Below, one piece after another: positions 1-42,666 of a stretch of 64,000 bases of DNA. Position numbers and translations under genes: made by a program. The stretch is from Balanoglossus misakiensis. Its lineage: Eukaryota > Animalia > Hemichordata. The notes under the pieces were generated by a model. The model did not search any database. It had not been told where the DNA came from and saw nothing but the letters and a program-made list of their open reading frames with translations. Where the stretch lies: NCBI GenBank assembly GCA_040954595.2, contig CM082580.2, positions 4,392,783-4,456,782 of the forward strand. Reading direction: 5' to 3'. Position 1 is the first letter of the stretch. The number at the start of each line of letters is the position of its first letter.

Positions 1-1223
1 CCTATCATTTGGTCTCGTCATCATAATTGTGATTGATATACGTGTAGGTGGCTCATTACAGCAAAACCATGCAACATCAAATGAAATGATAATGAAATTT
101 ATCCGGACCCGACTCGCTGCTATGACAATGCAATGAAGCGCTAAATTCATCAAATTTCATCGCAGCTTGACAGCGCAGACGTTAGCTACAGTCAGACGTT
201 AGCAGGAGAATTTTGAATATGCGTATTTATTAGGTTTGCATGACGATCCTGAATTGGCGCTTAATGAATGTAGCGGCGGAGATGTCCTCGTCCAATCAGA
301 TCTCTCATTACTGCGGCTACTGATAGAACCGTGAACAGAAAAATGGCCCATTATTTTCGGCATCATGCTGTGTTAACGTCAAATTGTGGTTGTCGAGATT
401 ACGAGATAAATAGCAGCATAATGATAGATTGACTGGTCTTGACGTCAAACCATATCTTCACCGACAAACTATTTAATGAATGTTACTACTTCCAAAATGT
501 TTAACTTTGACAAGTGAGAAAGTTCACACATTTTAGTATATACATGTACGTTTAATTAAATCTCCAGTAACTCTAAATGTACCTATTTATTCATTAGTTT
601 TTTTTCTTCAATTTGTTAGCTTTATGTAATTCAATGTTTAGTTTACCTTACTAACAAATCATGTATCGGTCAGTGTTAATTGTTGTTAAACGTTTTCCAC
701 ACCGCGGTTGAAAGGAAAACTGCATCACGTCAACTGGCAACACAGCACATGGCAATGGGGGTACACGGACAGAACATGCCATCTAAAACAAGATGCAGAT
801 ATTAGGAGACATACCTTGGGGAAAAATGTTGGCGGGTGGTGAGGAGGGGGGACAATCTTTTGTTATGCCCTGAGGAAAAAAAGGATTGGCAATGGAACAA
901 AAATGGTGTGATAGTGGCTGAAAAAAATTAGCTGACACACCCTAATCCTCTACCCCCAAGGAAATATACTGGTTCTCCCCTAAGCTATAAAGGGTGTTGA
1001 ATTTGCATGAAAAAAATTAAAGTTTGTTCAGACACAAATCTGACCTTGCCTGACTTCTTTACCTTTTGCCACAGGCGATACTATTAACAAAACTCTTAGG
1101 GGGAATGGAAAATCATGAAACTTTTTTGATCAAAATGGAGTTTGATCTCCAAACACAATTTGAAGCGACCCAGCCAGCTACGTCACATGACAAGACTGAG
1201 CATGCGTATCTCTGTGCATCGAC

Positions 1224-1291
1224 GGGGAAACCCCCTTTCCAGATCACATGACAAGCATGCGTAGTAGCACATTCACAGGGGGGGAATCCCC
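1224..1291. promoter_or_regulatory. Two NF-kB (kB)-type sites upstream of the GT4-NHL gene
   Basis: GGGGAAACCCC at 1224-1234 and GGGGAATCCCC at 1281-1291 both fit GGGRNWYYCC. TCACATGA (M-box/E-box-like) occurs at 1183-1190 and 1244-1251. About 1.1 kb upstream of the ATG at 2359. Confidence 0.5.
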
Positions 1292-2358
1292 AGTCGCAGT
1301 CACCTGTTGAGCTGTCAAAGAGTTTTGGCAATGTGGCGGTCATGTCTTGAAATCTATGCGTTACTTTATCAGTGAACCCGGAACCAGGGTTTATTTTGTG
1401 ATAGTAGCTTTGGTAACAGGTATGTAGTACGTCACATGTAGACGAATCATGAAGCTTGGAGCGGCTGGGTGCGCGTAGCTAGCTAGAGAGGTACCAAATC
1501 GAGTCTGAGTGAATGCGCCAGATTTCCAGTGATTTGACGACATGAATGTCGTTTCTCTTAATCCGAATTTTTTATTGCTTGCTTGTTCGCCTTCCGATCC
1601 AAGTTTGAATCTGGAAAAAAGGGGGAATTGTCGGCTGAATATGCCACGTTCACCAGCAGTGTTTATCATCTTTGTGAGCTAGGTCACATTCAAAGAGAAG
1701 GGGGGGGGGGGGGGCTGCCACGTGGACAAAATCGCTTTGTTCACTTTATTCGTGTATCACACAGGTCTCTGTGCCATCGTGACGCTTATCTTATCTCAAT
1801 GCATTAAATTTCATTTCAAAACATTGTTGTCTACAGACACGCCCACTTCTGTGCTCAGCAGGCCCGATTTTTCGTGTTTAATGCATGTTGAATTTTCAGT
1901 TGTGATTATGCCGATTCTGTTGTATCACATTTACATTTGAAATCGATTGACTTGAACTGAACAACAGATATCATGTTTTTATTTTGGAATTATTATAGCG
2001 CTCTGTGTGCCACACACTGAAATTCTGTGATTGGCTTTATAAATTGTCCATGGTAACAGTGGTTACATTTTGATATATGACTGTAAATTGCATGCCAAAA
2101 AAACACGTTTTTTTTTTGGTTTAGTGTTAAATGGCTGAAATGGCATATTTGAATGTTCTAAAGAACATTAGGTGCTTTTTTGTGTGCCATCCACTAAAAA
2201 TCTGTGATTGGCCAGAACTCAATTTGCCATGGTAACTGTGGCTAAATTACTATAAGTGGCTGTACACCTCTAATAACAGATGTGTAAGAATCTACCAGTC
2301 TTCTTTAAATGTCTCAAATTTGCTTATAATTTGTACACAGTAATATAATGTCAGAACC

Positions 2359-4477
2359 ATGTGCAGTGCAGCATTGGTTTTATTGACATCATGGGACAAG
2401 GAGAAAAATGATACGACTACTCAACCAACTTGCGCTTTAATCAAACATCTTAAAGAAGAGACACTTCAGACGGATGGAGACACTGAGTTCCACTGTACAA
2501 CCCTTGAAGTTGAAGTGAGTGAAGAACAGAAGAAAGATGCGAAGAGTGTTGGTGCTACTTTGGTCCTCGCAACAAGAAACAAGTGGTCGGATCCTCTTGA
2601 AGACCCCCCTGGAGTACACTGGCTTTTCAATCACTGGGCCTACTTCCCAGAACTGAAGGGATTGCAAAACATCAAACACGTAGTCGGATATTCTCCGAAG
2701 ACGCACAACGCCGCAGCCGCAATCCATGAAAGTCTCTTTCCCAAAGCCAAACTTCACCAACTGCAACTTCCCAATCCACCACCTGTGGCAGCGTTACTGG
2801 TGACGACGTCCTATCAGACAGAATCAGAAGGCCAGCTGACTTTACCAACTCGCACAATTGTCAGTCAACTCCGCGAAGAGTCGCTCAACTCGAACAAAGT
2901 CTCTGAGTTCTACTGTACCACCCTCGAGGATGAAGTGAGTGAAGAACAAAAGGAAGACGCAGAAGAAGCTGGTGTTACCTTGATCCCACCTACGCGAACT
3001 AAATGGTCTCATCCTCTGGAAGATCCACCAGGAGTACATTGGCTTATTAATCACGGAATCTACTACCCTCAACTGAAGAAGCTGCAAAACATAAAACATG
3101 TGGTTGGGTTTCTTAAGAAGACGCAATACGCCGCTATGGCAATTCACGAAGGCCTCTTTCCCGAAGCCAAACTTCACCAACTCCATCTTCCTGATCCACC
3201 TCCAGGGGTACTGTTCGTGTACGATGAATGGAACAGAGAAGACTGTGGCTTGACTGGGTTTCACAGAATTCTCGTACGAGATTTCTCTGCAAGGAAACGC
3301 GAAGAAGGAAAACCTGTCAAAGCCTACTCCACTCTGGTTGGTGTCAAAGTCAGTGATGATCAGAAGGCAGATGCGGCCAGTTGCGATGTTACATTGATTG
3401 CAGCACAAAGACAGGGAAGAATCGACCCAGATGAAGACGAGCCAGAATTGAAGTGGTTGATGTATCATAAAATCTACTATCCCGACTTACAAAAGCTGGA
3501 AAACATACAGTATGTTGTCGGTTACGCTCCCAAGACTGGCCTGGCTGCGGCTGACATCAGAGAGAAAGTATTTCCCAGTGCAGAACTCGTTATGATCAAC
3601 CATGCCTATGAAGATGACAACTGTCTGCTGGGATTATCGAAAGAAAAGTTCAGTGAAATGATGCTGAAGTTGGCCAGTGAAGCTGACATCATATTCTCAA
3701 TTGGTCCAAGTGTGTATGAAGATTTCAGGAGCCAGTACCGAGCCACCTATGACGACAGGGATCTATACATAATCCCTCATGCAGAGATTTTACCCAAACC
3801 TGCTGGAGTCTTCTTCAAGCTGAACCCAAAGTTGCTAGATAAAGTGACTACTCACAGCGTATTGACGTACGGGCAGATCGATACCCAAGAAGCCTTGGAC
3901 AGATGCGAGACAATAGCAGCTTCTGTTGGAAGTGCAGCAAATGTACTGAACGATGTTAACGACAAACTTCTCAAGTGGTCAATACAGGGAGTTTCTCGAC
4001 AAGCAAGTCAGGCTGAACTGAAGCGCCTCCTACACCAGATAAACAGCGATCACGTAAAGACACATCTTCTGTCTGCTTACTCGGCAAAGACCTTACAGAG
4101 ATCTCTGTGTCAATCCGACATTTGCCTTCCGCCACCTTTCAGCGCCGACTATGGCTTTAGTGGTTTGGAATCTATAGCAGTTGGACTCCCAACCTATTCT
4201 GATGAATATTCCCAGCTTGGAAAGTTAGTCAAAGAATACTTTCCATACTACGCAGACAGATTTGTAGTGGCGCACTCATCTGATAAGATTTCAGAGAAGA
4301 TAATATGGAGTGTCAAGAACACCAGGCTAGCTTTTGAAGAAGCTAAGGAACTGAAGAATGCTTTCATGGAAAGTGAAGATGTCAACAAGAGTTATGCCAC
4401 ATTTGCTGGTATGTTGAAGCTAAAGCATACAAGCGAAGATGAAGATGGACTCGATCAATGCAGGAAAGAAACGACAG
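2359..4477 (+). CDS. Exon encoding triplicated GT-B N-lobe and a GT4 (Glycos_transf_1-like) domain
   Basis: 140-aa repeats at 2359-2784, 2785-3204 and from 3205 share CTTLE.EVSEEQK.DA...GVTL, W..NH..Y.P.L..L.NI..VVG. The third copy continues into VMINH...ADIIFSIG...LTYGQ...SDICLPPPFSADYGFSGLESIAVGLP, matching the GT4 EGFGLxxLEAxxxGLP region. Confidence 0.75.
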
Positions 4478-7400
4478 GTGTGTATAATAATATTATATTT
4501 CTGGTTTAAGTTTATTTCCCCTTAATTATTAGGTCCCATTTAGTATTAAAGACTAAGCTGTGTGTGTTTGGTAATCCCAGCTTTCCATTAGAACTATTTA
4601 AATTTGTATTGTTGACTTTACCACGAATGCTTTTAAGGGACCGTTCAGTTTTTACGGCAGGGGGGGGGGGGGCTGGAAAGTTTGTGTCATCGGTTCTCAA
4701 AATCAGGCCGACCCCCCCTTCACCCAGCCCAAAAAAATGATGACCCCCCCTTTGACAGACCCAAAAATATGATGACCCCCCCCCCCCACGCCGAAAACAT
4801 TCGCCGTCCTGATCCTATGTATACACTGTATGCAATAAAGGGAATGGGGCTCCTCACTCCTCAATTATAAATTTCTTAAAGTAATTGAATTATTTAATAA
4901 TATCGTTGCAATAAAGAAATCTATGAACAAAATAAAATGACAAGTCAATACAATAGTTGCTAGAATTGGTAAAACAAGAAAAGTGGCGGGCGTGGGCGTG
5001 GGAGGGGTGTCCCCCTCCCACATAAGAAAATTTTGTAAAATACGGTGCTCAAAGTTGCATTTTAATGAACTCAAAAACAAATAAAGTCAATGTTAGGCAG
5101 GACAAATTTTGATTTTGCCACTCCACTCAAAGTAAGCATAGGGGTGGGGTGGGAATAAGTCTGCCCTGGTACACTAGACAAACCAGCGGATAAATGATAT
5201 GTTGCATAGAATGTAGGGGGTGGGTGTGGGAGGGGGTGTCCCCCTTCCACATAAGAAAATTTTGTAAAATATGTAGCTCAAAGTTGCATTTTTATGAACT
5301 CAAAAGCAAATTCATCTCAATGTTTGGGAGGACCAATTTTATTTTTTGCCATTCCACTCAAAGTTAGAAGATTTGGCGTCATCTTCGTCATGACATCATT
5401 TATAAAACTTCCAGCATATAGAAGATGCAGCACGAAACTATCAGTTATGCAAAATGGTTTAAACGTTTATTCTCCTTTATGTATTAACTTTGTTAAATAT
5501 TATCATCAGAGGGTTTGGGGTGGCAAGCAGTCTGCCCTGGTAGAATAGTCAAACCAGCAAAAATCGATATGTTGCAAAGAATGTAGGGGGTGGGTGTGGG
5601 AGGGGGTGTCCCCCTCCCACATTAGAAAATTTTGTAAAATAAAGGGCGCGAAACTGCAATTTTGTGGACTCAAAAGCTAAAGTTTGGTGGCAAAAGTATG
5701 TGACCCCCCCCCCTAAACGTTTAAAAAAAACAGATGACCCCCCCCCTTTTGGACTTCAAAATTCAAGTGACCCCCCCCCTGGATTTTGCCGGCCCCCCCC
5801 CGGCCGTAAAAACTGAACGGTCCCTAAGCATCATCTGTGAATTGCACTAAACAGCATTCTTAGTGTGTACATGCATGTGATATTATATTGTCTTATGGCT
5901 GTATACTGTTGTTTCTTTTAATCTTAGACCATCTTGCTGACACAATTCAAATCCATGTCCGACTGGATGAAAATGCCTATCAGCAGCATCTAGCAGAAAA
6001 TCAGGACCAGAATGAGGAAAGGCAACAGGCAGCATCTACAGCTTGGGAAAACTGCCGACGAGAGTTTAACAGAAGAGCAGCTGACGTGGTATCCAATAGA
6101 GACGACATCAACAAAGTCAAGAAGGCCTGCACTGATAAACTTGGTCGAGTGGATATACCCGAAACAAAAACAGGGTGTCTTCAAATCACAGTCGCCATTC
6201 CTAGACTTAGCAATCTGTACAGATTGCGAGGAAGCTGTCACGAGTCAAGAAGTTTAGCCAGGGCATTAGAACCAATCTTGATGACAGACGCAATGGAAGA
6301 AGTCAACACAGCTGGAATACCATTACAGTTGACGGCAACATATGACCAAACCAGGTTTGATGAACTGGAACTTGTCTTCCTTAAAAGTAAGTTTTGAGAC
6401 GACGATATAAAATATTACAATTCAGTACAAGATTGGATAATGGAAGAAAAAATGTTGGTTGAATTCCACGAGGAAACAAAAATGATTGAAACATTTCAAC
6501 CCCAGGAACTTTCACAGAAAGAGGTGTAGTCATTTAAATCTTGGTCTACCTTTTATTATCTTCCAGGAGACGGTGGTGGAATAGGACCAGTGAAAGTGTG
6601 TGATGACACTGAAGACGAAGGTATTGATGAAATACTGGATGAGGTATGTCAAATATTGGTATCCTTTAAGGATAGGATATTCTTGTAAGACTAAGATTTA
6701 ATTACATGATGAAAAAGAAAATTGCTCAGATTTTGCCTTACGGTTGATTGCCTGTTTACCTGATTAAATGTCCATATATCAGTCATGAAATAATCCAAAC
6801 CAAGCAGAATTGCCTGTACATTGATAAGAATGTTCTTGTTTCTGTTTAAGGCTGAAGGAGAAGGTCTAACATTGCAAGAGGATCCTCATAGCAAACTCAT
6901 TGACCTGAAACAAAGTGAGTACAGAACAAACACTGGTAGTTTAATTAGGGCCCAAGCGCAAGCAAGCGCTTGGGCCCTATTGGTTTCGTTGGAATTTTTC
7001 TTTCTTTCTTTATTCTTGTGTCAATTCTTCGGCCAACCAAATCTCTGAAACTACAGCAGCTACACTGCTCAAACTTGCTACAGTGGTCAAGGTCTATGAG
7101 TAGATGTGCAGTGACTTGTGAATACTTAATTAGTCACGTGACCTGGCGGCCATATTGGATTTTCTGAAAAAAATCAAATCTCAGATCTCAGAAACTACAA
7201 GTCAGATCGACTTCAAATTTGGCATGCAGGTAGGCTACCTTCTACCCATCATTTTTGTAATTGGAAATTTTGCTGTCATTGTTGCAGTTTTTTTGCTACA
7301 ATTTTTTTTCTGAAATCTGGCTTAAAATTCAAAAATCTTCTTCTCCAGAACCGGTGATAACAGAGACACGGGGTTTGGGGTATGTGGTCACCTAACTGAT

Positions 7401-10400
7401 GTCTATCAAGTTTGCGAAGATCATTGTGATTGGTCGAAGATTATGGCGGCCATATTGGATTTTCGAAAAACCATAGTTAAACTCCAAAAATCTTCTTCTC
7501 AAGAACGGGAGATGACTGAGTTGCAAGATTCGGGGAGTATGGTCAATACACTGATGTCAATCAAGTTTGCAAAGAGCATTGTGATTGGTCGAAGATTATG
7601 GCGGCCATATTGGATTTTGTAAAAAGCAGTGAAAATTTGAAATTCCTTTTTCTAGTCTAAAAATTGATAGCATACAAATTCTTTTTATGGATATCAATCG
7701 TCATGTGACTAAAATATGTTACAATTTTTTTGGCAATTTTTCACATGACCTTTGACCTACTTATCATGCGTTATTATTTCTGCATATCTAATTTCAGGCT
7801 AACCTATAGGGCTAGATGTTTGGTTTTTGATGCATGTGGATTAGTGTGTGATCAAAAAATTTTGCTACTTTTCATGACCCCTTTGACCTCTGCTGACCTC
7901 ATTAATTATGTGCATAGCTAATTACAGGCGAACCAATAGAGCTAGAGGTTTGGTTTTTGTTGGACATGGACCAGTATGGGATCAAAATTTTTTGCCCAAA
8001 TGTTGGGTGACCTCTGGTGACCTTTGATCTACTTTCGCATATCTCAGCATCCAGAGCAGATACAGCCATGGCATTTGGTAGGATGGGACCAAAATGTAAA
8101 GCCACATTTTTGGGTCACCTGTAACACCTGCTGACATCATTAAATATGCACATACCTAATTACAGGCGAACCAATAGAGCTAGACTTTTGGTTTTTGTTG
8201 GACATGGACCAGTATGGGTAAAAAAAATTGCCCAAATAGTGGGTGACCTCAGGTGACCTTTGACCTACTTCACCCTATTTCAGCAGCAAAAATACACACA
8301 TCCTTGTTATGTCATGAGATAATACATCCGATAGAAAATTCTGTTTCTTCTCATTCATACTGTGCATATATAATTCAAGATCAGCGCTTGGGCCCGACAA
8401 TGCTGCTCGCAGCTTTAATTTTAATTTAAGTTTAATTTTAATTTTACCACAATGATCATTTGGACATAGCCAATCATATCTTTCCTTGTCACTAAGATGT
8501 GCACTTTTGGTGTGCTTAACTAAATACCTTGAGTGATCATTTTGATATGGATGGGTATTATCGCAATTATTTGTGTAGGTTCACCTTCAACATGTCTTCG
8601 GCACTGCTATAGGAAGATTGAGAGTAAATTCTTTCACACTGCGTTATTATATTTCTGTACCATTTTATTTGATGGCAACCTTGCAGGTGGGACATTATCG
8701 AAGCTGTTGTTTCTTGAGATTGATCCGACACGAGAAATCAAGAAGTCAGCAGACAAATATGCACCTCTGATACTCAACAGTGAGCAGTGTAAAACCAAAA
8801 GAAAGAAAGGAAGACAGTGTGATATCATACAACTATCAGTGAAAATGACCGAGAAAGTTCAGCATATCCTATCTCACAGGCCACAAGTCTTAGAGTTACT
8901 GGGTGTTAGAAGATATCTTATGACTAACACAGAAGGGATTGATTTCAGTGACTCAGGTAATGACTGCATATTTATAATCACACAGTCCAATACACTGCAA
9001 CAATCATGCATGGCAAACTGTCTAATTATGTTAAGTGTCCTGAGTGTGATATCCAGTGATATTTTTTTCGCAGGCTCACTTGTCTCTGTAACAATTACAG
9101 TTTGTGGAGCTTATTGCAGAATTGAAATGACCTAGCTGTTGCAATCAATATATTGTCATGTCACCATTGTATGTATGTGCTTTTTATAATACATGAATGT
9201 GCTTTTGAAAAGAGGGACATCGGTTGTTCACCATCTTTTTTTCACAAAAATCACTACATGCGCGGTACTTTAATATTACTCTATACTCACACCTGCAGAT
9301 TGCCAAATGTACATCTTACATTTAAGTATCTACATATCATCTTCTTCATTCCAGAGTTGGAAGAGAAAATCAAACAACAGGGTACACTAGTTCATCCCAT
9401 ATCAGATGAATCTATCAGCTTACAAGCACAAAGCTTACTGCCCTTTGAAGTTAGTCTAAAACAGTTCAAAGAAATCCAGGTCTTGCTATCACAGATATTG
9501 TGTATGAGACAGAGATTAGACAAAGTCGTGGCAGAGAAGGCCAGAATTTACACAGAGAAGACCAAAATCCAACTAGAGAAGTCTAAACTCCAGACAGAAA
9601 AGATGATTGTAGAGAATCAGTTGAAGGAAGCAATTCAGGAAAAGTCCTTCTTGGAAAAGCAGTACGACGACAGCAAACAGAAACTTGCAAGTGCCGAAAA
9701 AGTAGCTGCCAAACAGCTTGTAAACATTCACTTTCTCCGGAAAAGTTTGGATGAAGTAGACCCTAAAATCATCCAAGTCTTGGAGTCTAAACTTGAACAG
9801 AAAGAGCAAATGATTAACGAACTGAACAGAAAGTTATCGAACATCTCTGATAGTGAACTGAAACTTGAACTTGAAGATCCAACACTGGAAACAGAGCAAG
9901 AAAAAGGTAAGATTGAAGTTATGGACCGGTATATTATAATAGGGAATAATACCATTTCAAGCGGGAGATTGTTCCACAGGTGTGCTGAGTTTTACTGTAA
10001 CACTGTCTCTCCTATGCTTTATATGTACAATTGCAGATAACCACATAGTGTCCCGCATTATTTTCTACTGTTGTGGAGTATTTTTAAATGTGCTGACATT
10101 CCACTGTCTGGCTTGAAATTTAAGTAGTGGGTACTCAGAGTGGAGCAAAAGCAGCTTGAAATTTTGTTCCTAATGTATATACACACGCGTAACTGTGAAG
10201 AGTTACTCTAGGCTAGTGCTATTGAAAATGTAATTTGTTGCAGATTTGATGTTATACATGTAACTTGAGAAAGACAAAAACTGTAAACTGAGTTGGATGT
10301 CATGAGGATCCCGTGGATATTTGTAACATCTTAAGGTGTTATCCTCCAATTCTTTTTTTTTTATTGTAACATTGGAAACCTGCAGAAAAACCTTCAATTT

Positions 10401-12123
10401 GAAATAGAACTGTAAATTCCCATACACAGTGACCAGAGGGGATACAGATGACAATCTGTAACTTAATAGTTTACTAAAAAAAAAGCAAATGTACATGGCA
10501 GATTACCTTTATTGCTCCCTTTACATGCGGTGTTACTTTTCCCCATGTGCCTGCAGAAATGTCGACAACACATCCTGAGATGCAAGAAGAAGAAACTGGC
10601 ACGGAGGAAACCGAACAGCCACAACCTGAGACTACTAGGGAAGGAGAAACTGGGGATGCCAAAGCCAAACCAATACAACCTGAGCATCACGAGCCCCAGA
10701 CGGAAGAGACTGAGAAAGGTAATAATTAAAAAGCAAATGAAGTGGAGATAACTTGTAACCAGAGACATTTTTTATTTTATTATAATTACCATACCTATTA
10801 ATTACAGTGCTATATGTTTATACTACAATTATTACTTTTACAGAAGACAAAGCAGCTCCAGGCCTCTTTGGTAAATTGAGAAGATGGTTTGCAGGGAGTG
10901 AAGAAACTGCTGGTGATTCTGTGACTCCAGGTAGCAGTGAAGAATCTAAGGATACAAAGGGGACCAGTGTTTCTGCAACAGCTGCTAAAACAGACGTACC
11001 AGGTACAGCATGGCTAATTCATCTTTGCAAAATTAAAAACACCACAGCTACTGCTAATGACTATATCGGTATACACAGGAGCCAATAATTCAAAGTCTTG
11101 CTAATGTAGATTTATAAGATAGGTAATGAGCCAAGAGAAATTGTCACTTGTAACAAGCCAAAAATAATTCAGAGTAACTATTACCGGTATAGCCCATCAG
11201 CTACTGAGTTACGACAAAAATTTTGCCTCGGGTGACCAGCTATTTTTTACGTCACTGTGCATGTACAGAAGTATCAACCATGATTTCTGTTTAAACTTCT
11301 AGGCAACTGGTCAATGAATGTATTGGATGTCCAAAGTCCGAAGCCAGGGCAGAAGTTTATACAACCAAGAGGTATGGTGTTCCATGGTGACCGACTGGTG
11401 GTGTGTGATATGGACAACCACAGTGTGCAGATATTGAATCAAGACTACAGCAGTGCAGACAGAGTCTTAAGCTTTGATGGTCGGTTTGCGAATCCATGCC
11501 AGCCGTTGGATGTAGCTGTCTCCCATGATAGCATCTACTTCATAAATGACAAAGGGAATTCTCAGATTGTTGTTTGTGATCAAGACAGTGTGATTATTAG
11601 AATAATTACCCTGTCTGCCGACATCAATGCTTGGGGCATAGCTCTACTGAAGGGATACGTTTTGATCACTGAGGTCAACGGTCAGCGATTGCTCAAGTAC
11701 ACCAAAGATGGCCAGTTTGTTGCAGAAGTTGGCGGTCAAGGTTATGGCCAAACACAATTTGACTGGCCTGGCTTTGTGGTTGTCAACAGCAAGAATGTCA
11801 TCTTGGTGTCAGACCGTTTCAATCACTGCATCAAGTGTTTCGATCAAGAATTGAAATTCTTGTATCAATTTGGGATGGAGGGTTCAGGCCCAAGTAGGCT
11901 TTGGAATCCGCTAAGCATTGATGTCGACGAGGAGGATAATGTGTATGTGTGTGATTGGGGCAGTGGCAGGGTTGTGAAGTGGAGATTTGACGGAGAGTGG
12001 GTCTGTCAGTTATTTCACGGTGAGCTGCGAAACCCCTCGTACCTCGCAGTGATGAGCAGTGATCAAATCGCTGTTCGAGAGTCAGGCAGCAATCAAATCA
12101 AAATGTTCTACAAGCAGATATAA
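2359..12123 (+). CDS. Multi-exon ~1560-aa protein: 2x partial GT-B N-lobe repeat + GT4-like glycosyltransferase + TRADD-N-like domain + coiled coil + NHL beta-propeller
   Basis: Coding exons 2359-4477, 5928-6386, 6567-6643, 6851-6914, 8687-8956, 9355-9906, 10557-10718, 10844-11002, 11303-12123. All have GT..AG boundaries and matching phases; total 4683 nt = 1560 aa + stop. Acceptor at 2340 implies an upstream non-coding exon. AATAAA at 12421. Confidence 0.8.
4637..5824. mobile_element. PIF/Harbinger (Tourist-like) non-autonomous MITE in an intron of the GT4-NHL gene
   Basis: 22-bp TIRs GGGACCGTTCAGTTTTTACGGC (4637-4658) and GCCGTAAAAACTGAACGGTCCC (5803-5824), flanked by TAA at 4634-4636 and 5825-5827 (3-bp TSD). 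Three internal G-rich repeats (~4990, ~5215, ~5585). No coding capacity. Confidence 0.8.
5928..6386 (+). CDS. Exon encoding TRADD-N-like domain
   Basis: KTGCLQITVAIPRLSNLYRL...LARALEPILMTDAM...LQLTATYDQTRFDELELVF resembles the G[S/C]LxITV...L.KTTI.EE.Y pattern of TRADD-N-like domains in invertebrate immune proteins (by eye). Symmetric phase 1-1 exon. Confidence 0.5.
6943..8420 (+). mobile_element. Helentron-associated (HINE/DINE-1-like) non-autonomous element
   Basis: 5' hairpin AGGGCCCAAGCGC...GCGCTTGGGCCCT; 3' subterminal inverted copy AGCGCTTGGGCCC (8383-8395) followed by stem-loop GCTGC-TC-GCAGC and TTTAATT. T-rich flanks with no clear TSD. Internal direct repeats (~7330/7490 and ~7900/8140). 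Confidence 0.6.
9355..9906 (+). CDS. Coiled-coil exon of the GT4-NHL gene
   Basis: Heptad-rich E/K/L/Q sequence (EKARIYTEKTKIQLEKSKLQTEK...VLESKLEQKEQMINELNRKL); phase 1-1 exon. Confidence 0.75.
11303..12123 (+). CDS. Terminal exon: NHL-repeat beta-propeller (TRIM2/3/71-like NHL region)
   Basis: Repeated F..P.G/D[VM]AV...[LI]VV.D..NH.[VI]Q.[LF] motifs, e.g. FDWPGFVVVNSKNVILVSDRFNHCIKCFD and LWNPLSIDVDEEDNVYVCDWGSGRV. Confidence 0.9.
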
Positions 12124-12420
12124 AAATCAACTGTGAAATGTTTGCCAATGTGACGTACAGACCGCTGTCAATTTTGAGGCAATGAATTTAAATTCACTGA
12201 CCTGTGAATGTATGTTTGAGAAGTTTTATGTCAACTGCTTATAATATCTGTATTTTAAATTGCTTTATGTTATTCATCAAAATTTGAATTAATGCAATAT
12301 CCATTCAACCCAAACAAATCTTCATCTGTGACACATCTTTTCTTACCACTGACTTGGAAGAATCAAATCAGTGTTTTAAGCAAATATGTTAATTTATTTT
12401 CGGATATTGTAAAGCTTTGC

Positions 12421-12426
12421 AATAAA
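12421..12426 (+). terminator. Polyadenylation signal of the GT4-NHL gene
   Basis: AATAAA about 300 nt after the stop codon in an AT-rich 3' UTR. Confidence 0.5.
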
Positions 12427-13109
12427 CTTTGAAACATTTCTCTGAACAGAACATGCTTTTATATTATATGTACTGACAACTACATATACTTCATGAAGCT
12501 CGCGCAGTCATAACCCTAAAGGCTTGTGTTTTATCAACATATTTTGTTTTACTTCTGACAGACGTTTAAAGGTCCCAGCTTGCGTGTCAAACATGCACAA
12601 ATATTCTTTTATTCCAAACACAGTGCGGCTTTTCAACGATAGGAATTGATGGATTTTTCATGTGTATATTTCCTGCCATTGTACACGTGTGAATCCGCGT
12701 TTAATGACTTTTTGGATTTGTTTTACTATGTGTAGATGTGTAATTTCATGAGTCACCATTTAATAGCCCAGTTTTGGGATGAATAAAGGTTATTGAATTG
12801 AACTGAATAGATCAATAATTTAGGTGCCATATTGTTTGGAATTCTATGTGTTATTACGGTCCATTGATGTTATTATGTGCGATCCTGTGAGCAACGCACA
12901 CATATGGAACTCATACAAGAATCTCCATGGATCCTAAATTGATGAGATGAATGAGATGGTGATTTATAAGTGGCTATACTATGAAATACAAGATGTGTTG
13001 GTTGTAAAGCAGCTACACATCACTCCAAGTTATAATTGACACCTCCCTTTTTCTGTAATGTATCTATGTAAGCATGTATCCTGGGATCCCATATAGATCA
13101 GTCAGGCAA

Positions 13110-13358
13110 ATTCTCAGCAATCGCGTGATATAGCCATGTGACAAACAGTGTTGTCATTTCCAGATGACAGGCAAGCAGTTTTACTTCAGAACAGCCAAAC
13201 ACGTAACATGTATCAGGTATAGTTCCTCATCAGCCTCATGGAGTTTCATCTGCACAGTCTTCGTCTGGACCACGTTGAAGTTGTCCGTCGTGTGGATATT
13301 TGAATGCCAACGTAACTGCCGCCTGAGCGCATCTGACGTCATTTGATATCGAAGAATA
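13110..13358 (+). repeat. Dispersed repeat copy 1 (related copy at 42960-43261)
   Basis: Shared blocks GTCATTTCCAGATGAC.GGCAAGCA, CCTCATCAGCCTCAT, TCTGACGTCATTTGATA.CGAAGAATA. Confidence 0.75.
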
Positions 13359-15659
13359 GGGAGACAGGAAGGAAGGCAGAGCAGTGCATAGCTATCTATT
13401 GGTCTGTTGTTTTCTGTACTGGTATCTTCTGGTGGTGATGTGTCTTTCATTGTATACTACTGGCATACGACATCTTTAAAATGCTCAGGGCCAACAGAAA
13501 ATTCCAGTAATGTTTGGAGGAGGGGGGGGGGGGACCAATGGCTATGATGCTTATGAAGATAAGACAAACACACAGAAAATTTCATGTAAATGTGTTTATT
13601 TCTACCCGACGTGAAGTTAGGTTTGTTTTACAGCAACAGCTAAGCCGAAATATTTGAAATGAATAGCATGCCGAATACAATGGAACAATCGAAATACCCT
13701 CTGTCACATCAGAAATTTCATCTCTGTTGCTGCGAGCGGGCTACCCAACCCTTCCTTTGTGCCAAAATGAGTAAAGGCAGGGAGGTAGGATTTTACCAAT
13801 GCTCTGACCAGCTCAAAGGGTGTTTACTCACCCTTACTTATGTCAAATTTTGGAGGGGATTTGAATATAGCATATACTAGTATATCCACATGAAGTCACA
13901 CGGTAGGTGATGTAAACCTGCTGAAAAGAAAGCAAACATTAGAGCATAATATACGCAACACAACACCAACAAAAGAAAGAAAAGAAAAGTCAAAACAACA
14001 CAACACAACAGACGACACAAAAAAAATCTACTTCACAATTATAGCCCCATTACAAGTTATTCTGTAAATCAATGGGTTGTTAGTTAATTACCTTCCCTTT
14101 CACCAGAAAACATTTTGTTGAGATTCAAACTACCCTGGTATAATACTTTGTTCTGTATTGCATCTAACCAACCCTTCATCCATCAACTTTTCATCTAAAA
14201 ATGCATTCATGCACTACACCAAAATCTTGTTATATGAACTAACAACTTTCAAATTAATGTACATACACTTAAAAATGTCTCAACTACTTACAGTTACTGC
14301 TCACTCTGAAATTAATGACACGACACATATACATGTGGCAGGAAAGATTGCTTGATATGTACGGACAAAGATATTAATCATGTATAATAGTCAAACTTCA
14401 TATGTAAATTGTAAAAAATATCACTTTTTATGTAATTCACAAAGCTTTAAATCACATAGTCTCTTGCATATTTTTATATATAACCTTCAGCATTTGATGT
14501 CCTAATGTTGCACTTGCCATAGTACAAGAACCATGAGAACAGTATATATGATGCTTGCATTTATTCAAAAGCTGTAAAACTTTAACACCTGTAAATTGAC
14601 CCCAATGGCTTATTTTCGACGCTTAGCTATTCAATCATATATTCTTAGTAAACTAAGAAAATGATAACTTGCAAAGTTTGATTTGTACATATGAGCTTAA
14701 GATGTTTCTCTGTTGAAATAAAAAAATGAATAGTGAAAACTAAATCTCATGTTTAACTTTGATAAACCTATCTGTTTTCATAAACTTCAATTGTAAAAAT
14801 CTAAATCTCACATTTAACCTATTTACTCCCTTTTTGTGAATTTAAATTTTAAAGAATGTGTAAATTCTTTATCAGTTTCCTCTAAAAGAAAATGGATTAA
14901 CGTTATACACGCTTTAATGGGGAAACACCCGTTTTCAATGACATAAACATTCAATGCCAAAAAGTACAAATGCAAGAATCAGAGTTTGAATATTGTATAA
15001 ATAATTACATAAATTCATGTTCAGCTAAATTGGACTGTAGGACACCACACTTTGTATTCTGACCAAATATATGTGTTACATCTGTGGAATATAGACGGAA
15101 ACGCTTCACTTCAGTTACTTCACCCTGATTTCAGCTCTTAATGTGTAATGGCACGTGTGACCATCCGAAAATGATACTTTCAGAATTCAGTCAATAAAGA
15201 AAATTATGATATGAAAATAAAAAGAACATATGGCGAAAAGTTAAAGTATTAACGAAAAACAATTAAGTATTTAAAAAAAATATTTTAAGAAAAATACATC
15301 AGTTAAAAGTGAACCTATGAAACTGATGGAAATGAATAGTCAATGAAAAACAATACAGTATTGTTTACAAAATTAAATTACCGGGATGTGAACAAAGGGA
15401 ATCAGCTAAAAATTAACCAAAGACACAGATGAAACTAATATTCAATAAATGTAAAAGTATTAATAAAAAATAACAACAGAGTATTCTGTGAAAAATGATA
15501 TTATGTAAACAAAAGGGAATTAATAAATAGCAAACCTGTGAAAATGATGAAAGAAATAAAATATTCAATGACTGTGAAAGTGTTCATGAAAACAACAAAA
15601 CAGTATTCTTTGAAAAATAAAATATGATAACAAACAGGTTTTAAAAATAGCGGACCTAT

Positions 15660-16790
15660 GACAATCATGAAAGAAATACAATATTCAATCAATGTGAAAG
15701 TGTTAATGAAAAACATTATTGTTTGAATAAGTCAATGATGAAAAGAAATACAATATTCAATGAATGTGAAAATGTTAATGAAAAACATTATTGTTTGAAT
15801 ATGTCAATGATGAAAAGAAATACAATATTCAATGAATGTGAAAATGTTAATGAAAAACAGTATTGTTTAAATAGGTCAATGATGAAAAGAAATACAATAT
15901 TCAATGAATGTGAAAATGTTAATGAAAAACAATATTATTTGAATAGGTCAATGATGAAAAGAAATACAATATTCAATGAATGTGAAAATGTTAATGAAAA
16001 ACAGTATTATTTGAATAGGTCAATGATGAAAAGAAATACAATATTCAATGAATGTGAAAATGTTAATGAAAAACAGTATTATTTGAATAGGTCAATGATG
16101 AAAAGAAATACAATATTCAATGAATGTGAAAATGTTAATGAAAACCAGGATTGTTTGAATAGGTCAATGATGAAAAGAAATACAATATTCAATGAATGTG
16201 AAAATGTTAATGAAAACAGTATTATTTGAATAGGTCAATGATGAAAAGAAATACAATATTCAATGGATGTGAAAATGTTAATAAAAACAGTATTGTTTAA
16301 ATAGGTCAATGATGAAAAGAAATACAATATTCAATGAATGTGAAAATGTTAATGAAAAACAATATTATTTGAATAGGTCAATGATGAAAAGAAATACAAT
16401 ATTCAATGAATGTGAAAATGTTAATGAAAAACAGTATTATTTGAATAGGTCAATGATGAAAAGAAATACAATATTCAATGAATGTGAAAATGTTAATGAA
16501 AAACAGTATTATTTGAATAGGTCAATGATGAAAAGAAATACAATATTCAATGAATGTGAAAATGTTAATGAAAACCAGGATTGTTTGAATAGGTCAATGA
16601 TGAAAAGAAATACAATATTCAATGAATGTGAAAATGTTAATGAAAACAGTATTATTTGAATAGGTCAATGATGAAAAGAAATACAATATTCAATGGATGT
16701 GAAAATGTTAATAAAAACAGTATTGTTTAAATAGGTCAATGATGAAAAGAAATACAATATTCAATGAATGTGAAAATGATAATGAAAACA
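15660..16790. repeat. 72-bp AT-rich minisatellite (~15 copies) within a diverged ~120-bp repeat region (~15190-17110)
   Basis: Unit TGAATAGGTCAATGATGAAAAGAAATACAATATTCAATGAATGTGAAAATGTTAATGAAAAACAGTATTATT; period 72 (15721 to 15793). Explains the MMKRNTIFNECENVNEKQYYLNRS ORFs. Confidence 0.95.
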
Positions 16791-17734
16791 ATACAGTGTT
16801 GTTTGAAAAATGAAATTATGTTAACAACAGGGAATTAGTAAACAGTAGACCTATGATACTGATGAAAAGAAATACGATATTCAATGAATGTGACAGTGTT
16901 AATGAGAAACAAAGCATTATTTTTTGAAACATGAAATTATGTTAACAAAAGTCAATCAGCTAAAATTGAACCGTTGACACAGATGAATAGAAAATTCAAT
17001 GAATGTAAAAATGTTAATGAAAAACAATACAGTATTGTTTGAAAAATGAAATTATGTTAATATAAGGGAAACAGTTAAAAGTGAATCTATGAATCTGATG
17101 AAAAAGTATTCATTGAATAATTAAACCATCTCAATGTAAAGGAAAAGTGTATTCGCTTAAAATTTAAACAATGCCCATAAAAAGGGTTTGGAAATTTAAG
17201 TGAGAGGCAATGAAAGTTTTGCATTAAAGTAAAACATGATAGTGGTAAGAAGCAAACAATGAAAAAAGAAAACTTTCACTCAAAAGGATTAATATATGTA
17301 GTGAAAAATGAAACTATAACAGTGGAAAGGAATAAAGTATTACATGAATGTGAAGCTGTAAAATAGAGTGTTCAGCAATGTGAAGCTGTAAATTAATGAA
17401 ATAGTCTAGAGTGTACAGTAAAAATCAAATTATGTCAATGAAAGAAAATAGCCATATTCAGTGAATAGACAAATATGACTGTAAAAAGGAATAGAATATT
17501 CCGTGAAGTGTATAACTATGACAATGAAGACTGGGCATTTTTAAAAGGAAATGTTTGTAAGGCAAAAAGGAACCAGGCCAAGGCAAATATGAACAGTCCA
17601 TGCTGAACATATTTTTAAGGAATCATTCATAAGGCAGGCATTTGCCAAGGAAAAGAAAAACATTCTTACACACTACCTCGAAATTTAAAAAAAAATAAAA
17701 CATTAAACTTTGTTGGTGTTTATGTGTCAACTAC

Positions 17735-22000: not shown

Positions 22001-23639
22001 TGCCCCACGTGCCGAGGTGTATCGTATCTATGATATAACTTGAAGTCTAATATATATTTGGTGTGTCATTTTATAAACAGACTACCTGCGGAATCCGGAC
22101 ATGCAAATGGAGGATATTCTTGATGATTTTATCGGATTCTTCTTTGGAGGTAAATAACAGCTTTGTTGCTTTAGTTACAACCGGTCTCTTTAGATTTTCA
22201 AATTGTTATTACGAGATCATCAAATTTCAACCTTCTAAAACTTGCGATGGTCACGTGATGGCGATGATATCGTATAGTAATGTTACAAGTCTTCTTTAAA
22301 CCCTTATCTTTCGAAAGCAAGCGCTTCATTCAACGTTTGTCCTTTTGTGCCTCCGCAGGTCAGGAGACCACGGCCAACGAGCTGTCGTTCACATTAATGG
22401 AACTACTGAGGTGCCCGGAAATTGAACACAGGCGAGTAACTGGCGGGCACTTGGAATTATCACGATGTGGTGTTCCCGTGAACTCAGACACTCAGATCCC
22501 AATTCTAATCGATTATGATGTCGTATTCAGCAAATTTGCCCCATATTGCGAACAGTTTGAAACATGCATGAAATGGCTGTGTATCCTATGTATGCCGCTG
22601 GCAACCGTCGACCATAGCTTAGCCCCTTCCGAACGGAACAGCCAAAAATTAGCAAAGGTAAAGACGGCGCCTACAAAATGTAACGACACACAGCAAGTCC
22701 GATCACAAAGGCACATTTAGGTCAAACCAGGTCCGTCTTTTGATATTATTTTTCAGAGTGAGAACGGAAATTGATTCTGTTCTAAATGGTAAAACGTTTG
22801 TGGAGTATGAAGACATTGGTAAATTGTCGTACACGTCAAAGGTAACGTACTCATTTTCAAAACAAAAAATTCAAACCGAAGAAGAAGTCGATTCTAAAGT
22901 AAGGCTCATTTGATGCGAAGTTGAACACTGTCCCTCTGGTTCTGTTTATAGATATTGACATCGTAGCAGCAACTTGTTTACATGTGACATTTCACCATTG
23001 CAGGTGTTGAAGGAGTCTCTGAGGCTGTATCCACCTGTTACACGCATAATGCGCGAGAACACTAAAGATGAAGTGTTTGCTGGCATAATGGTACCCGCTC
23101 ATAGTCCCATCATGGTAGGTCATTCCATGACCCCGCGGAATTCGCACTGATTTTGTTTTAGACAATCCCGACCAACAGATCGCCATAGTATACAATTGAA
23201 TGTTGAATTTTGAATGAACTGCGGGTCAAAAGACCATCGCACTTTACCACGTTGACAGTTGCATAATCTCAACAATTAACTTCAAAGTGCACATTGAGGA
23301 TATCACAGAGTCTTCAGATCCAGTGTAAAGTCTCAGTTGCACAATTAAATCGTGTGCTCCTGTCTCCGTTGCTTTCTCAGCTTAGTACATATGTCATGAG
23401 CAGGATGGAAGAATTCTTTGAAGACCCGCTTGTGTTTAACCCTGACAGATTTGATGAAACAGAAACAAAGTAAGTCATCAAATGAATGTATGTATGTATG
23501 TATGTATGTATGTATGTATGTATGTATGTATGTATGTATGTATGTATGTATGTATGTATGTATGTATGTATGTATGTATGTATGTATGTATGTATGTATG
23601 TATGTATGTATGTATGTATGTGTGTATGTGTGTGTGTGT

Positions 23640-23725
<86 letters not shown>

Positions 23726-24090
23726 CTATGTATGTACTAAGCCATTTTGTATTTTCTTTCTCAGAACCATGTACATGTACGCATATTTCCCATTTTCTCT
23801 CGGTCCCCGCAACTGCATTGGGAAAGCCTTTGCAGAGGTAAGAAGGCCGTCATTTGAAATCTGCACAGAATTTGACAACCTTTTCTTTGATCATCTGCGT
23901 AGAAATATCAACTAACAATCCGTTGTTTAATAACGCAATCTTTCAGATTGAAGCCAAGTTGATATTGGCTAGATTGTTGACGGAGTTCGATTTCACATGG
24001 TTGCCCGACCAGTCATATGACATACTGGATCTTGTGACAACTAGGCCAAAGGATGGCTGCCAAACGTACATCAAGATTCGTGATAAGTGA
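19031..24090 (+). CDS. CYP46A1: Cytochrome P450, CYP46A1 (cholesterol 24-hydroxylase)-like, 14 exons, 508 aa
   Basis: Exons 19031-19182, 19403-19480, 19990-20071, 20320-20480, 20741-20879, 21215-21328, 21581-21737, 22081-22149, 22359-22431, 22757-22841, 23004-23114, 23381-23469, 23765-23837, 23947-24090 (1527 nt). N-terminal anchor + YSHIPGPKRSSFLLG, VYGERFLG, WLRTR, GGQETT, KESLRLYPP, FNPDRF, heme motif FSLGPRNCIG. Family-level call; strict orthology not established. Confidence 0.92.
23488..23723. repeat. Compound microsatellite (TATG)n-(TG)n in a CYP intron
   Basis: Directly visible; explains the MYVC/CV ORFs. Confidence 0.97.
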
Positions 24091-41240: not shown

Positions 41241-42666
41241 TTTGTTAGTCTTGTTGGTACTCGAGTAGAAAAGAAATTTTTTATAACGGAACTTCAGGAT
41301 AAAATGCAAATAAGTCTTATTACCATAGTGAGCATGTGTGATTGTGTTCACATCTTCCACAAAATAGCAGCTCAGGCAGATTGTTTTCATAGGTTTTCGA
41401 TTATGTACACAGATTAGACGCTAGATTTGTTTGCTTGGGTTGGTAATCTTGCTATCCATCTTTCACTTCTCTTGGTCATTCTTATAGTTTGCTCATTTAA
41501 ATGAAGCAAGTTCTGCATAAATGAAATGTCTGACGCAGGATTTGTTGATTTTTTGCGCCTTCTATGTCTCCCACATTGATTTTGTGCATCTCGGGTATCT
41601 GCGTCTGTACTGACTTATTACAGAAGACAAAAATATATGCTTTTCGCGTTAACAAGAACCACAAACTAACAAGGAAAAGACAGGAAAAAGAATTACAAAT
41701 AATGTAAAATAAAAGAAAAAAGTCATAAATTTAAATCTGGTAACAAATGTACAGGATAAAACTCTGTGTAGTAACTTACATACTTGTTATTTTCTAAGTT
41801 GCAAATTTATCCTGGCTGTCTTGGCATTTTAAAGCATTATAAGTTTCTACCAACATTAACAGCCTAATGTGATCTTCTTGCAATTTATATCTGGGATTCA
41901 AAGCACAACATTTTGTCTACAATATTTTACCGACTCATAGTCATCTGTCTGAAAAGGTTCGAGTGAGCCTGATTTTTGTCCATGTTTTCTGTCTATCATG
42001 TCCTGCCGAATCTCTTGAAAAGTTTAAATTTCGACTGACCCTACTTCTATGTCGTGGGAATAAACCGAAATACACAATACATTGAATCAAAAAGTATAAG
42101 TAAGATTGAAAGGAATCGCAAAAAACGGATAACGAACGGTTAGAAATATTTAGGCATGTACGTGAAGGGAAACGATTTTCTAAATCTAGGCGTTCATTGG
42201 GACTTGAACGAACAGGAGCTATGTATATCCTCTCCACGACGTAACTGTTGCCGTAAAGAGGCCGTGGTTTACGATGTGTCCTATTAGTGTATGGCACACC
42301 TAACAAAATAATAAATGATCACCTACCACCTTATCTGGAGATTGTCCCCCTTAAAGAAACAAAATGTCCAAGATAGAATCGTAAAAATAAGCCAACCTTA
42401 AATAACTGACGCTTGGAAAAATACTAAATAAAGAGGTCCTACCAGTTCATCTGGTCTTCAGCTTGGCGAAAATGAACTGTATATGTTACACACCTAGGAG
42501 GTGGGTGACGGATGCCACCGTGGTGTCTCAACATTGCAGAGGCTCGGCGAACATGTAACAACGCCTACAAGAGTAAAGAGATGTCACAACCTTATTATCA
42601 AGATAACATTTTCTAATCCTTTCAAACAGAACGAGATCGAATAAAGCAAAATCATTCATGGTCCCA

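What the first reader, a model, noticed from the sequence alone, without database searches (positions are those of the whole stretch)
2359..12123. Candidate novel innate-immune sensor/effector: GT4-type glycosyltransferase + TRADD-N-like + coiled coil + NHL propeller
Seen: nine exons splice in phase into a ~1560-aa protein with this domain order and no RING, B-box or NACHT that I can find. Known: GT4-type domains occur as N-terminal effector modules of expanded cnidarian NLR-type proteins, TRADD-N domains are adaptors in death/immune signalling, and coiled coil + NHL is the oligomerisation and ligand/RNA-binding end of TRIM-NHL proteins. Inference: an effector-adaptor-oligomeriser-sensor protein in which NHL is the recognition module and a GT-fold unit replaces the E3 ligase, i.e. 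a possibly undescribed immune receptor class.
Basis: partly seen in the sequence, partly recalled or inferred. Interest (0 to 1): 0.85.

Follow-up and report, generated by a model that had tools for sequence, protein, structure and literature searches.

The report
Acorn-worm propeller sensor on degenerate glycosyltransferase
A gene whose closest relatives are in acorn worms is predicted to splice nine exons into one protein that joins a sugar-transferase domain lacking one of its usual catalytic residues to a likely signalling switch and a propeller whose predicted binding face varies strongly between gene copies, so it is likely an intracellular pathogen sensor, a variant of a kind already catalogued in marine invertebrates rather than a new class.

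Summary
The nine-exon, 1560-aa model holds: GT4-conflict domain (E=1.6e-38), TRADD-N-like domain (joint best structural match TRADD-N, Z 6.2, with the family's Ser/Cys turn), coiled coil, NHL propeller; no RING, B-box or NACHT. The same order stands in one chain in 18 of 41 homologues with a full GT4; named homologues are Ptychodera flava and Glandiceps talaboti. It is not an undescribed class: Kaur et al. 2021 describe GT4-TRADD-N immune proteins and list GT4+TRADD-N+beta-propeller. This scan also noted the same chassis, with other tails, twice in this genome. Best reading: an inducible, diversified cytosolic receptor with NHL as variable head on a pseudo-GT4/TRADD-N switch. No RNA or functional evidence. 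New variant of a known kind; interest 0.45.

The parts
1224..1291 (+). Pair of NF-kB consensus sites (1224-1234 and 1281-1291), about 1.1 kb upstream of the ATG; function inferred
   Evidence: two or more sites in 1-2358 arose in 11 of 3000 dinucleotide shuffles. Consensus pattern recalled; sites were seen by eye before testing.
1420..2340 (+). Possible 5' UTR intron (donor after 1419, acceptor at 2340); in-frame stop at 2341-2343 makes ATG 2359 the start
   Evidence: sequence; homologues align from residue 1-5; no RNA
2359..2787 (+). Exon 1, repeat R1 (aa 1-143): copy of the first ~140 aa of the GT4 N-lobe
   Evidence: 3 Pfam GT4-conflict stretches; 35% identical to the GT4's own N-lobe start, 61% to R2
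2788..3207 (+). Exon 1, repeat R2 (aa 144-283): second N-lobe copy
   Evidence: 77% nucleotide identity to R1 over 302 nt; two repeats also in P0001, P0014, P0015, one in most other P. flava members
3208..4477 (+). Exon 1, GT4-conflict glycosyltransferase domain (aa 284-~690); Ala596 (4144-4146) at the first-Glu position of EX7E, Asp597 next to it, second Glu604 (4168-4170) kept
5928..6386 (+). Exon 2, TRADD-N-like domain (aa 707-859) with a helical insertion; Gly789-Cys790 (Cys codon 6176-6178) in the beta2-beta3 turn
6567..6643 (+). Exon 3, acidic linker; its start is conserved in homologues
6851..6914 (+). Exon 4, acidic linker; least well anchored exon
   Evidence: splice sites and phase only
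8687..8956 (+). Exon 5, small ferredoxin-like (beta-alpha-beta-beta-alpha-beta) domain, optional in the family
   Evidence: model pLDDT 85; many tied matches, best Z 7.6; in 20 of 67 homologues; no profile match to exon 2
9355..9906 (+). Exon 6, predicted coiled coil (aa ~1030-1165)
   Evidence: homologous region in most full-length members
10557..10718 (+). Exon 7, acidic low-complexity linker
   Evidence: weak matches in 2 of 13 homologues for exons 7-8
10844..11002 (+). Exon 8, low-complexity linker
11303..12123 (+). Exon 9, six-bladed NHL propeller (aa 1288-1560) and stop; top-face positions hypervariable among paralogues
12421..12787 (+). Two AATAAA polyadenylation-signal candidates (12421, 12782)

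Best explanation
The gene is predicted to splice nine exons into one protein with two extra GT4 N-lobe repeats, a GT4-conflict domain lacking the first Glu of EX7E, a likely TRADD-N switch, an optional ferredoxin-like domain, a predicted coiled coil and an NHL propeller, and it is likely a cytosolic, NF-kB-inducible pattern-recognition receptor of an expanded acorn-worm family. Mechanism, step by step. Shown: the domains, their order in homologues, swapping of C-terminal tails on a constant GT4-TRADD-N front, loss of EX7E across the family, excess variation on the NHL top face, two kB consensus sites. Inferred: (1) infection signalling induces the gene; (2) the NHL top face, different in each paralogue, binds a foreign ligand, more likely protein or glycan than a TRIM71-type stem-loop RNA; (3) the coiled coil clusters receptors; (4) as in the model of Kaur et al., TRADD-N holds its flanking domains inactive and on ligand binding re-exposes its Ser/Cys surface (Cys790) to recruit a downstream adaptor or a paralogue with an executor tail; (5) the GT4 and its N-lobe repeats act as a non-catalytic ligand-binding clamp or scaffold, not as a sugar-transferring effector.
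For: Architecture. One chain: 18 of 41 homologues with a full GT4 carry TRADD-N and NHL too; 37 of 41 carry TRADD-N; P0001 aligns over nearly the whole model (43% over aa 3-1202, 38% over 1137-1558). Expansion: of 67 homologues after dropping 5 isoforms, 47 are named P. flava, 4 G. talaboti, 3 unnamed, 13 not looked up. Tail swapping: TPR (P0007), NB-ARC+TPR (P0045), PARP14-like RRM/KH/Macro/WWE/PARP (P0072) on the same front; NHL and exon 5 are scattered over the GT4 tree (quick tree). NHL variation: 30 top-face positions, mean entropy 2.56 bits against 1.75 for 32 bottom-loop and 0.96 for 84 core positions in 23 rows (top>bottom p=4e-5); pairwise identity 20%, 42%, 63% in 18 proteins, while whole-domain identity (48%) equals that of the GT4 (48%). 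GT degeneracy: the family profile aligns to glycogen synthase 4QLB (E=0.0033) with a variable residue on the first Glu; 0 of 42 rows have E-x7-E; PF00534 scores only E=0.059 here while 100% of members of the nearest cnidarian GT4-conflict clusters carry it. kB sites. Acorn worms have NF-kB family members (PMC10210618, passages).
Against: No expression, induction, binding or enzyme data. TRADD-N rests on Z 6.2, tied with unrelated ferredoxin-like folds, Foldseek E=0.22 and no Pfam TRADD-N hit in exon 2 or in any homologue scanned; only 20 of 47 rows have a tiny residue before the Ser/Cys. Top and bottom positions were assigned by repeat pattern, not from a model, and after I had seen the entropy line; the top opening also differs among human TRIM NHL domains that are not variable immune receptors (PMC9634614); no dN/dS could be computed. 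The GT keeps Glu604 (41 of 42), an Asp/Glu one place after the lost Glu (39 of 42) and many invariant polar residues, and one EX7E Glu is expendable in some GT4 enzymes (PMC8760489), so activity is not excluded. The kB sites could lie in a repeat element; three other consensus matches in intron 1 do. This gene stands alone in the 64-kb window.
Confidence: 0.52

Rival explanations
1. Same sensor, but the GT4 is an active, non-canonical enzyme: ligand binding by NHL releases it to glycosylate invader or host molecules.
For: Glu604 in 41 of 42 rows, Asp/Glu597 in 39 of 42, Asn414-His415, Trp291, His302-Arg303 conserved; one EX7E Glu is expendable in some GT4s; Kaur et al. place GT4 in the effector position.
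Against: 0 of 42 rows keep E-x7-E; the first-Glu column holds 12 different residues, Trp among the commonest; no column between aa 503 and 517 keeps a Lys/Arg in 70% of rows, where GT4s carry the pyrophosphate-binding Arg and Lys (role; the mapping of this stretch is recalled, not aligned by a tool); PF00534 below cut-off.
Confidence: 0.22
2. An RNA-binding restriction factor or post-transcriptional regulator in the manner of TRIM71/Brat, with NHL reading RNA.
For: Best PDB matches of exon 9 are TRIM-NHL propellers (Thin, TRIM2/3 E~1e-33 to 1e-37, TRIM71 ~1e-31); top face is rich in aromatic residues and has 4 Lys/Arg of 30 positions; a relative carries PARP14-like RNA-binding modules.
Against: Net charge of the domain is -8 and top-face residues are not conserved among paralogues, unlike the strongly basic TRIM71 surface; no RING or B-box. 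A Brat-like flat surface for linear RNA is not excluded.
Confidence: 0.12
3. A lineage-specific scaffold family without an immune role, expanded by duplication and exon shuffling and drifting on its exposed surfaces.
For: No functional data; exons 2, 5, 6, 7 and 8 are symmetric phase 1-1 and shuffle easily; many homologue models are partial.
Against: Partner tails are immune-type (NB-ARC, TPR, PARP14-like); variation is higher on the top face than on the equally exposed bottom loops; kB sites upstream.
Confidence: 0.1
4. The GT exon and the NHL exon belong to separate genes, or the locus is not expressed.
For: The splice model rests on sequence and homology alone; exons 4, 7 and 8 have little homology support.
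Against: All 8 introns in phase with canonical ends and no stop in 1560 codons; 18 database models from two species join the same parts in one chain; these are gene models whose transcript support I could not check.
Confidence: 0.04

Closest known systems
GT4-TRADD-N (DEDD2 clade) proteins of cnidarians, cephalochordates and hemichordates (Kaur, Iyer, Burroughs, Aravind 2021, PMC8195603), e.g. XP_019644604.1 GT4+TRADD-N+beta-propeller
   Same: GT4-conflict domain directly before a TRADD-N-like domain; constant front, variable tail; lineage-specific expansion in a sessile marine invertebrate; beta-propeller, TPR and coiled-coil tails are in the paper's source data.
   Different: The paper treats GT4 as a likely active effector; here EX7E is lost family-wide. 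Extra N-lobe repeats, the optional ferredoxin-like domain and the variable NHL face were not seen in the passages and rows I read; Ptychodera does not occur in the Fig. 6 source data. The propeller type of XP_019644604.1 is not stated.
TRIM-NHL proteins (TRIM2, TRIM3, TRIM71/LIN-41, Brat, Thin)
   Same: Coiled coil followed by a C-terminal six-bladed NHL propeller; best PDB sequence matches.
   Different: No RING or B-box; no filamin hit; N-terminal half is GT4-TRADD-N; top face is not conserved among paralogues.
Cnidarian GT4-conflict proteins, including GT-NACHT NLR-type receptors (the NLR fusion is recalled; GT4 expansion in Acropora)
   Same: GT4-conflict as N-terminal module; nearest Atlas clusters by features are cnidarian GT4-conflict proteins (score 0.98).
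   Different: No NACHT/STAND here; the cnidarian clusters carry PF00534 in 100% of members, this GT4 falls below its cut-off.
Vertebrate TRADD (N-domain 1F2H, 1F3V)
   Same: Joint best structural match of exon 2; Ser67-type turn.
   Different: 8-10% identity, long helical insertion, no Death domain; a TRAF partner is not shown, and Kaur et al. note that MATH is not a universal partner.

Membership tests
GT4-TRADD-N proteins (Kaur et al. 2021) | GT4-conflict domain | tested here: met
   PF20706 133 bits, cut-off 26
GT4-TRADD-N proteins (Kaur et al. 2021) | RRM-like alpha+beta fold of TRADD-N directly after the GT4 | tested here: met
   four strands with helices; 1F2H joint best, Z 6.2, rmsd 4.2, 106 aligned; 1F3V highest TM, 0.41, E=0.22. 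The fold class is clear; Z alone does not single out TRADD-N.
GT4-TRADD-N proteins (Kaur et al. 2021) | Tiny residue + Ser (sometimes Cys) in the beta2-beta3 turn | tested here: met
   Gly789-Cys790; Ser 43 or Cys 4 of 47 rows; preceding residue G or S in 20 of 47
GT4-TRADD-N proteins (Kaur et al. 2021) | Sequence placement in the DEDD2 clade of TRADD-N | tested here: inconclusive
   no Pfam TRADD-N hit in exon 2 or homologues; the 50 phmmer hits gave no named sequence outside acorn worms; likeness to DEDD is recalled only
GT4-TRADD-N proteins (Kaur et al. 2021) | Variable C-terminal modules and lineage-specific expansion | tested here: met
   NHL, TPR, NB-ARC+TPR, PARP14-like tails; 47 named P. 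flava homologues
Catalytically canonical GT4 enzymes | EX7E motif | tested here: not met
   first Glu absent in 42 of 42 rows, second Glu in 41 of 42
Catalytically canonical GT4 enzymes | Arg and Lys that bind the donor pyrophosphate | tested here: inconclusive
   Gln506 (Gln 28, Arg 2 of 42) and Glu511 (Lys 7 of 42) at the expected place, but no tool alignment to a solved GT4 covered this stretch
Catalytically canonical GT4 enzymes | Sugar transfer activity | not testable with these tools
   needs an assay
TRIM-NHL | RING and B-box | tested here: not met
TRIM-NHL | Coiled coil and C-terminal NHL propeller | tested here: met
   NHL; coiled coil by crude scan only
TRIM71-type RNA-binding NHL | Strongly basic, conserved top surface | tested here: inconclusive
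   net -8, 4 Lys/Arg and 2 Asp/Glu at 30 pattern-assigned top positions, low conservation; no model or electrostatics, TRIM71 not counted at the same positions
NLR / STAND receptors | NACHT or NB-ARC NTPase | tested here: not met
   no Walker A, no Pfam hit; one relative, P0045, has a weak NB-ARC hit

The most novel reading that the evidence does not exclude
Enteropneust acorn worms have built a large variable-receptor system in which NHL propellers with a positively selected top face serve as antigen-like recognition heads on a dead-glycosyltransferase/TRADD-N chassis, and chassis-sharing paralogues with death-fold, TPR or PARP14-like tails act as partners; the duplicated GT N-lobes and the optional ferredoxin-like domain are integrated baits for pathogen effectors, as HMA domains are in plant NLRs.
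Probability: 0.2. Interest if true: 0.75.

Novelty: new variant of a known kind. Interest (0 to 1): 0.45.

Why it matters
GT4-TRADD-N proteins are a predicted, untested immune system of marine invertebrates. This member makes two of its open questions testable: whether the GT4 is an enzyme at all (a whole hemichordate subfamily has lost EX7E yet keeps the cleft), and whether NHL propellers, known mainly as RNA or protein binders of TRIM ligases, have been turned into a variable recognition repertoire in the sister group of echinoderms. If both hold, it adds a pseudo-enzyme-gated receptor to the ways deuterostomes diversified innate recognition without antibodies.

Tried and rejected
No whole genome is held, so paralogues in this organism and the repeat status of the kB region could not be checked. 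Sequencing runs: no RNA holder listed; this says nothing on expression. Atlas look-up of the exon 2 region through homologue P0001 gave no usable hit. Two copies of exon 2 in the complex predictor: no answer (score 0.17, mark 0.32; alignment not used), neither for nor against self-association. Exon 5 as a second TRADD-N: no profile match to exon 2 (probability 0.3); TRADD-N was not among its 50 listed structural rows, which does not exclude it; the rice Pikm-1 HMA match (Z 6.6) is tied with dozens of ferredoxin-like folds and is no evidence. One search compared untrimmed alignments and was uninformative. Attempts to get canonical GT4 sequences for residue mapping failed: PDB phmmer of exon 1 and of P0022, profile A4 swamped by NHL hits, prokaryote contigs (9 candidates, none confirmed), third homologue search (1 hit). 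NCBIfam added nothing. The narrow kB pattern was chosen after seeing the sites; its chance figure is not used. The GT4 tree is the quick one; the careful search did not finish. The repeat tree groups R1 with R2 at weak support (0.91, FastTree), so independent duplication versus gene conversion is open. Exon 1 and exon 9 were not folded (both jobs went to exons 2 and 5). Paper searches for a description of this family found only Kaur 2021; 0 papers for 'GT4-conflict'/'PF20706' and for 'Ptychodera' with 'NHL repeat'. The Saccoglossus dsRNA-challenge paper does not mention glycosyl-, NHL or TRADD in its main text; only one small supplementary file was held and had no hit, so its expression tables, unseen, may bear on induction.
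Full report
Observation. The window is AT-rich animal DNA; no genome is held. Exons 2, 5, 6, 7 and 8 start and end in phase 1, so each can be gained or lost without a frameshift. An in-frame stop 18 nt before ATG 2359 and the alignment of homologues from their first residues fix the start. Pfam gives GT4-conflict (E=1.6e-38) in exon 1 and NHL (E=2.5e-20) in exon 9. No RING, B-box or Walker A pattern occurs in the forward frames of 1-13500, and 0 of 46 intron and flank ORFs hit Pfam.

Relatives. Searches with the GT4 gave 13 long and 13 shorter proteins, all Ptychodera flava, 42-52% identical, and one Glandiceps talaboti protein; a search of 1.84 billion representatives with exon 2 gave 50 hits. 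After dropping 5 isoforms, 67 homologues remain: 47 named P. flava, 4 G. talaboti, 3 unnamed, 13 not looked up. The organism is therefore likely an enteropneust acorn worm (inference). Of 41 homologues with a full GT4, 37 have the exon 2 domain, 18 have it and NHL, 5 have exon 5 as well. P0001 (XP_070561900.1) is colinear with the model almost end to end and falls with it, P0014, P0015 and P0018 in one GT4 clade (SH-aLRT 98, quick tree). These are database gene models; their transcript support was not checked. The same front carries TPRs (P0007), a weak NB-ARC plus TPRs (P0045) or a PARP14-like module (P0072). No second copy lies in this window.

Exon 1. Before the GT4 stand two 140-aa repeats, 61% identical to each other and 35-36% to the start of the GT4 N-lobe; most P. 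flava members have one, three have two. The family profile aligns to glycogen synthase 4QLB (E=0.0033) across the EX7E region and puts a variable residue on the first Glu: Ala596 here, 12 different residues and no Glu in 42 rows, while the next position is Asp/Glu in 39 and the second Glu is kept in 41. In characterised GT4s the first Glu contacts the donor sugar and the second the ribose; both are needed in some enzymes, one is expendable in others (PMC8760489, passages). No Lys/Arg is conserved in aa 503-517, where I expect the pyrophosphate-binding pair, but that mapping is recalled. PF00534 scores below cut-off, whereas the nearest cnidarian GT4-conflict clusters all carry it. Many polar residues of the domain stay invariant. 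I read this as a cleft that still binds something but likely does not transfer sugar.

Exon 2. The AlphaFold model from a 47-row alignment is confident (pLDDT 93): four strands, with a long helical insertion after the first. Among 48,161 chains TRADD-N (1F2H) is joint best (Z 6.2, rmsd 4.2, 106 aligned), tied with PCDH15 MAD12 and a Y1 transposase; Foldseek puts 1F3V third with the highest TM score, 0.41, at E=0.22. These scores alone are middling. The independent check is the motif: Kaur et al. define a tiny residue plus Ser, sometimes Cys, in the beta2-beta3 turn; the model has Gly789-Cys790 there and 47 of 47 rows have Ser or Cys. TRADD-N-like is well supported; the DEDD2-clade label follows from the paper's GT4-TRADD-N pattern and was not shown by sequence.

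Exon 5 folds as a small ferredoxin-like domain (pLDDT 85) with many tied matches (EF-G domain V, ribosomal S6, ACT, HMA; best Z 7.6). It occurs in 20 of 67 homologues, scattered over the tree, and nothing names its function. Exon 6 has heptad-like stretches; exons 3, 4, 7, 8 are acidic linkers.

Exon 9. The best PDB matches are Thin, TRIM2, TRIM3 and TRIM71 propellers. In 23 family rows the 30 positions assigned by repeat pattern to the top face have mean entropy 2.56 bits, bottom loops 1.75, core 0.96 (p=4e-5 top over bottom); pairwise identity is 20%, 42% and 63%. The top face is the binding site of NHL domains and is strongly basic in TRIM71 (PMC9634614, passages); here the domain is net -8 and the face is mixed and aromatic. 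Caveats: positions were picked after seeing the entropy line, no model was made, top faces differ among other NHL paralogues too, and selection was not measured.

Upstream. Two NF-kB consensus sites lie at 1224-1234 and 1281-1291; the window holds 6 distinct consensus sites, three of them in an intron 1 repeat; two or more in 1-2358 arose in 11 of 3000 shuffles. A splice donor after 1419 and an acceptor at 2340 suggest a non-coding first exon just downstream of them. This is a hint of inducibility, not proof.

What is known. Kaur et al. 2021 (PMC8195603; sections 11, 12, 15 read whole, other passages, and searches in the Fig. 4 and Fig. 6 source data) describe GT4 preceding TRADD-N in cnidarians, cephalochordates and hemichordates. 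The Fig. 4 file (cut when stored; 30 of 176 GT4 places seen) lists GT4+TRADD-N+beta-propeller in Branchiostoma belcheri, Death+TRADD-N+coiled-coil+beta-propeller, and coral TRADD-N+beta-propeller proteins annotated TRIM71-like or brat. The word NHL is absent from those two files, but the label covers such propellers. The paper's model is that TRADD-N sits between constant and variable parts and switches on ligand binding through the conserved Ser. Earlier notes of this scan report the same chassis, with a degenerate GT4 and IFIT-like or ZU5-UPA-DED tails, on two other pieces of this genome (unchecked AI notes; I had found the EX7E loss before seeing them). Other papers were seen as search listings only, except PMC10210618 (passages and one supplementary file).

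Verdict. A real, intact-looking gene; a member by tested features of the GT4-TRADD-N kind, not a TRIM and not an NLR. It works most likely as a variable cytosolic sensor: NHL head, coiled-coil clustering, TRADD-N switch, pseudo-GT4 clamp (0.52), with an active non-canonical GT the main rival (0.22). New for the kind, as far as my searches reach: the NHL-tailed acorn-worm expansion with a variable top face, family-wide EX7E loss, N-lobe repeats and an optional ferredoxin-like domain. Novelty: new variant of a known kind. Interest 0.45.

Noticed in passing
window 29673-41241: 80-bp satellite, about 147 copies at 94% match; the many ORFs there are repeat translations.
   Followed up: no
window 15437-17104: AT-rich nested tandem repeats of 72, 115 and 120 bp.
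   Followed up: no
window ~22350-22430 and ~23780-23840 (+): Two cytochrome P450 exon fragments (PF00067, E=0.0066 and 5.2e-6); the second follows an ATGT/GT microsatellite.
   Followed up: partly
window 48459-49010 (-) and 51083-51691 (-): Two related small ORFs with a hydrophobic leader and a shared cysteine pattern, no Pfam hit; look like duplicated secreted proteins.
   Followed up: partly
window 53389-53943 (+): ORF with a signal-peptide-like stretch, no Pfam hit.
   Followed up: partly
window 61493-61849 (+) and 63187-63591 (+): Exon-like ORFs that resemble an F-type lectin end and a C-type lectin domain (recalled likeness; no Pfam hit at E 0.05).
   Followed up: partly
window 2348-2386 (+): Short out-of-frame ORF starting at an ATG 11 nt before the main start and overlapping it; could damp translation.
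   Followed up: no
window 4988-5680 and 7322-8285: Repeat elements in introns 1 and 4: three ~160-bp copies at 83-86% in intron 1 and duplicated 150-160-bp units in intron 4.
   Followed up: no
window 1183-1251: Two TCACATGA E-box-type sites interleaved with the kB pair (11 such sites in the window).
   Followed up: no
protein P0072 (G. talaboti, 3027 aa): GT4-TRADD-N front fused to a full PARP14-like module (RRM, KH, Macro, WWE, PARP).
   Followed up: partly
proteins P0002 and P0060: P0002 has a very divergent GT4 at the N-terminus and a second repeat+GT4 at the C-terminus; P0060 has two TRADD-N-like domains.
   Followed up: no
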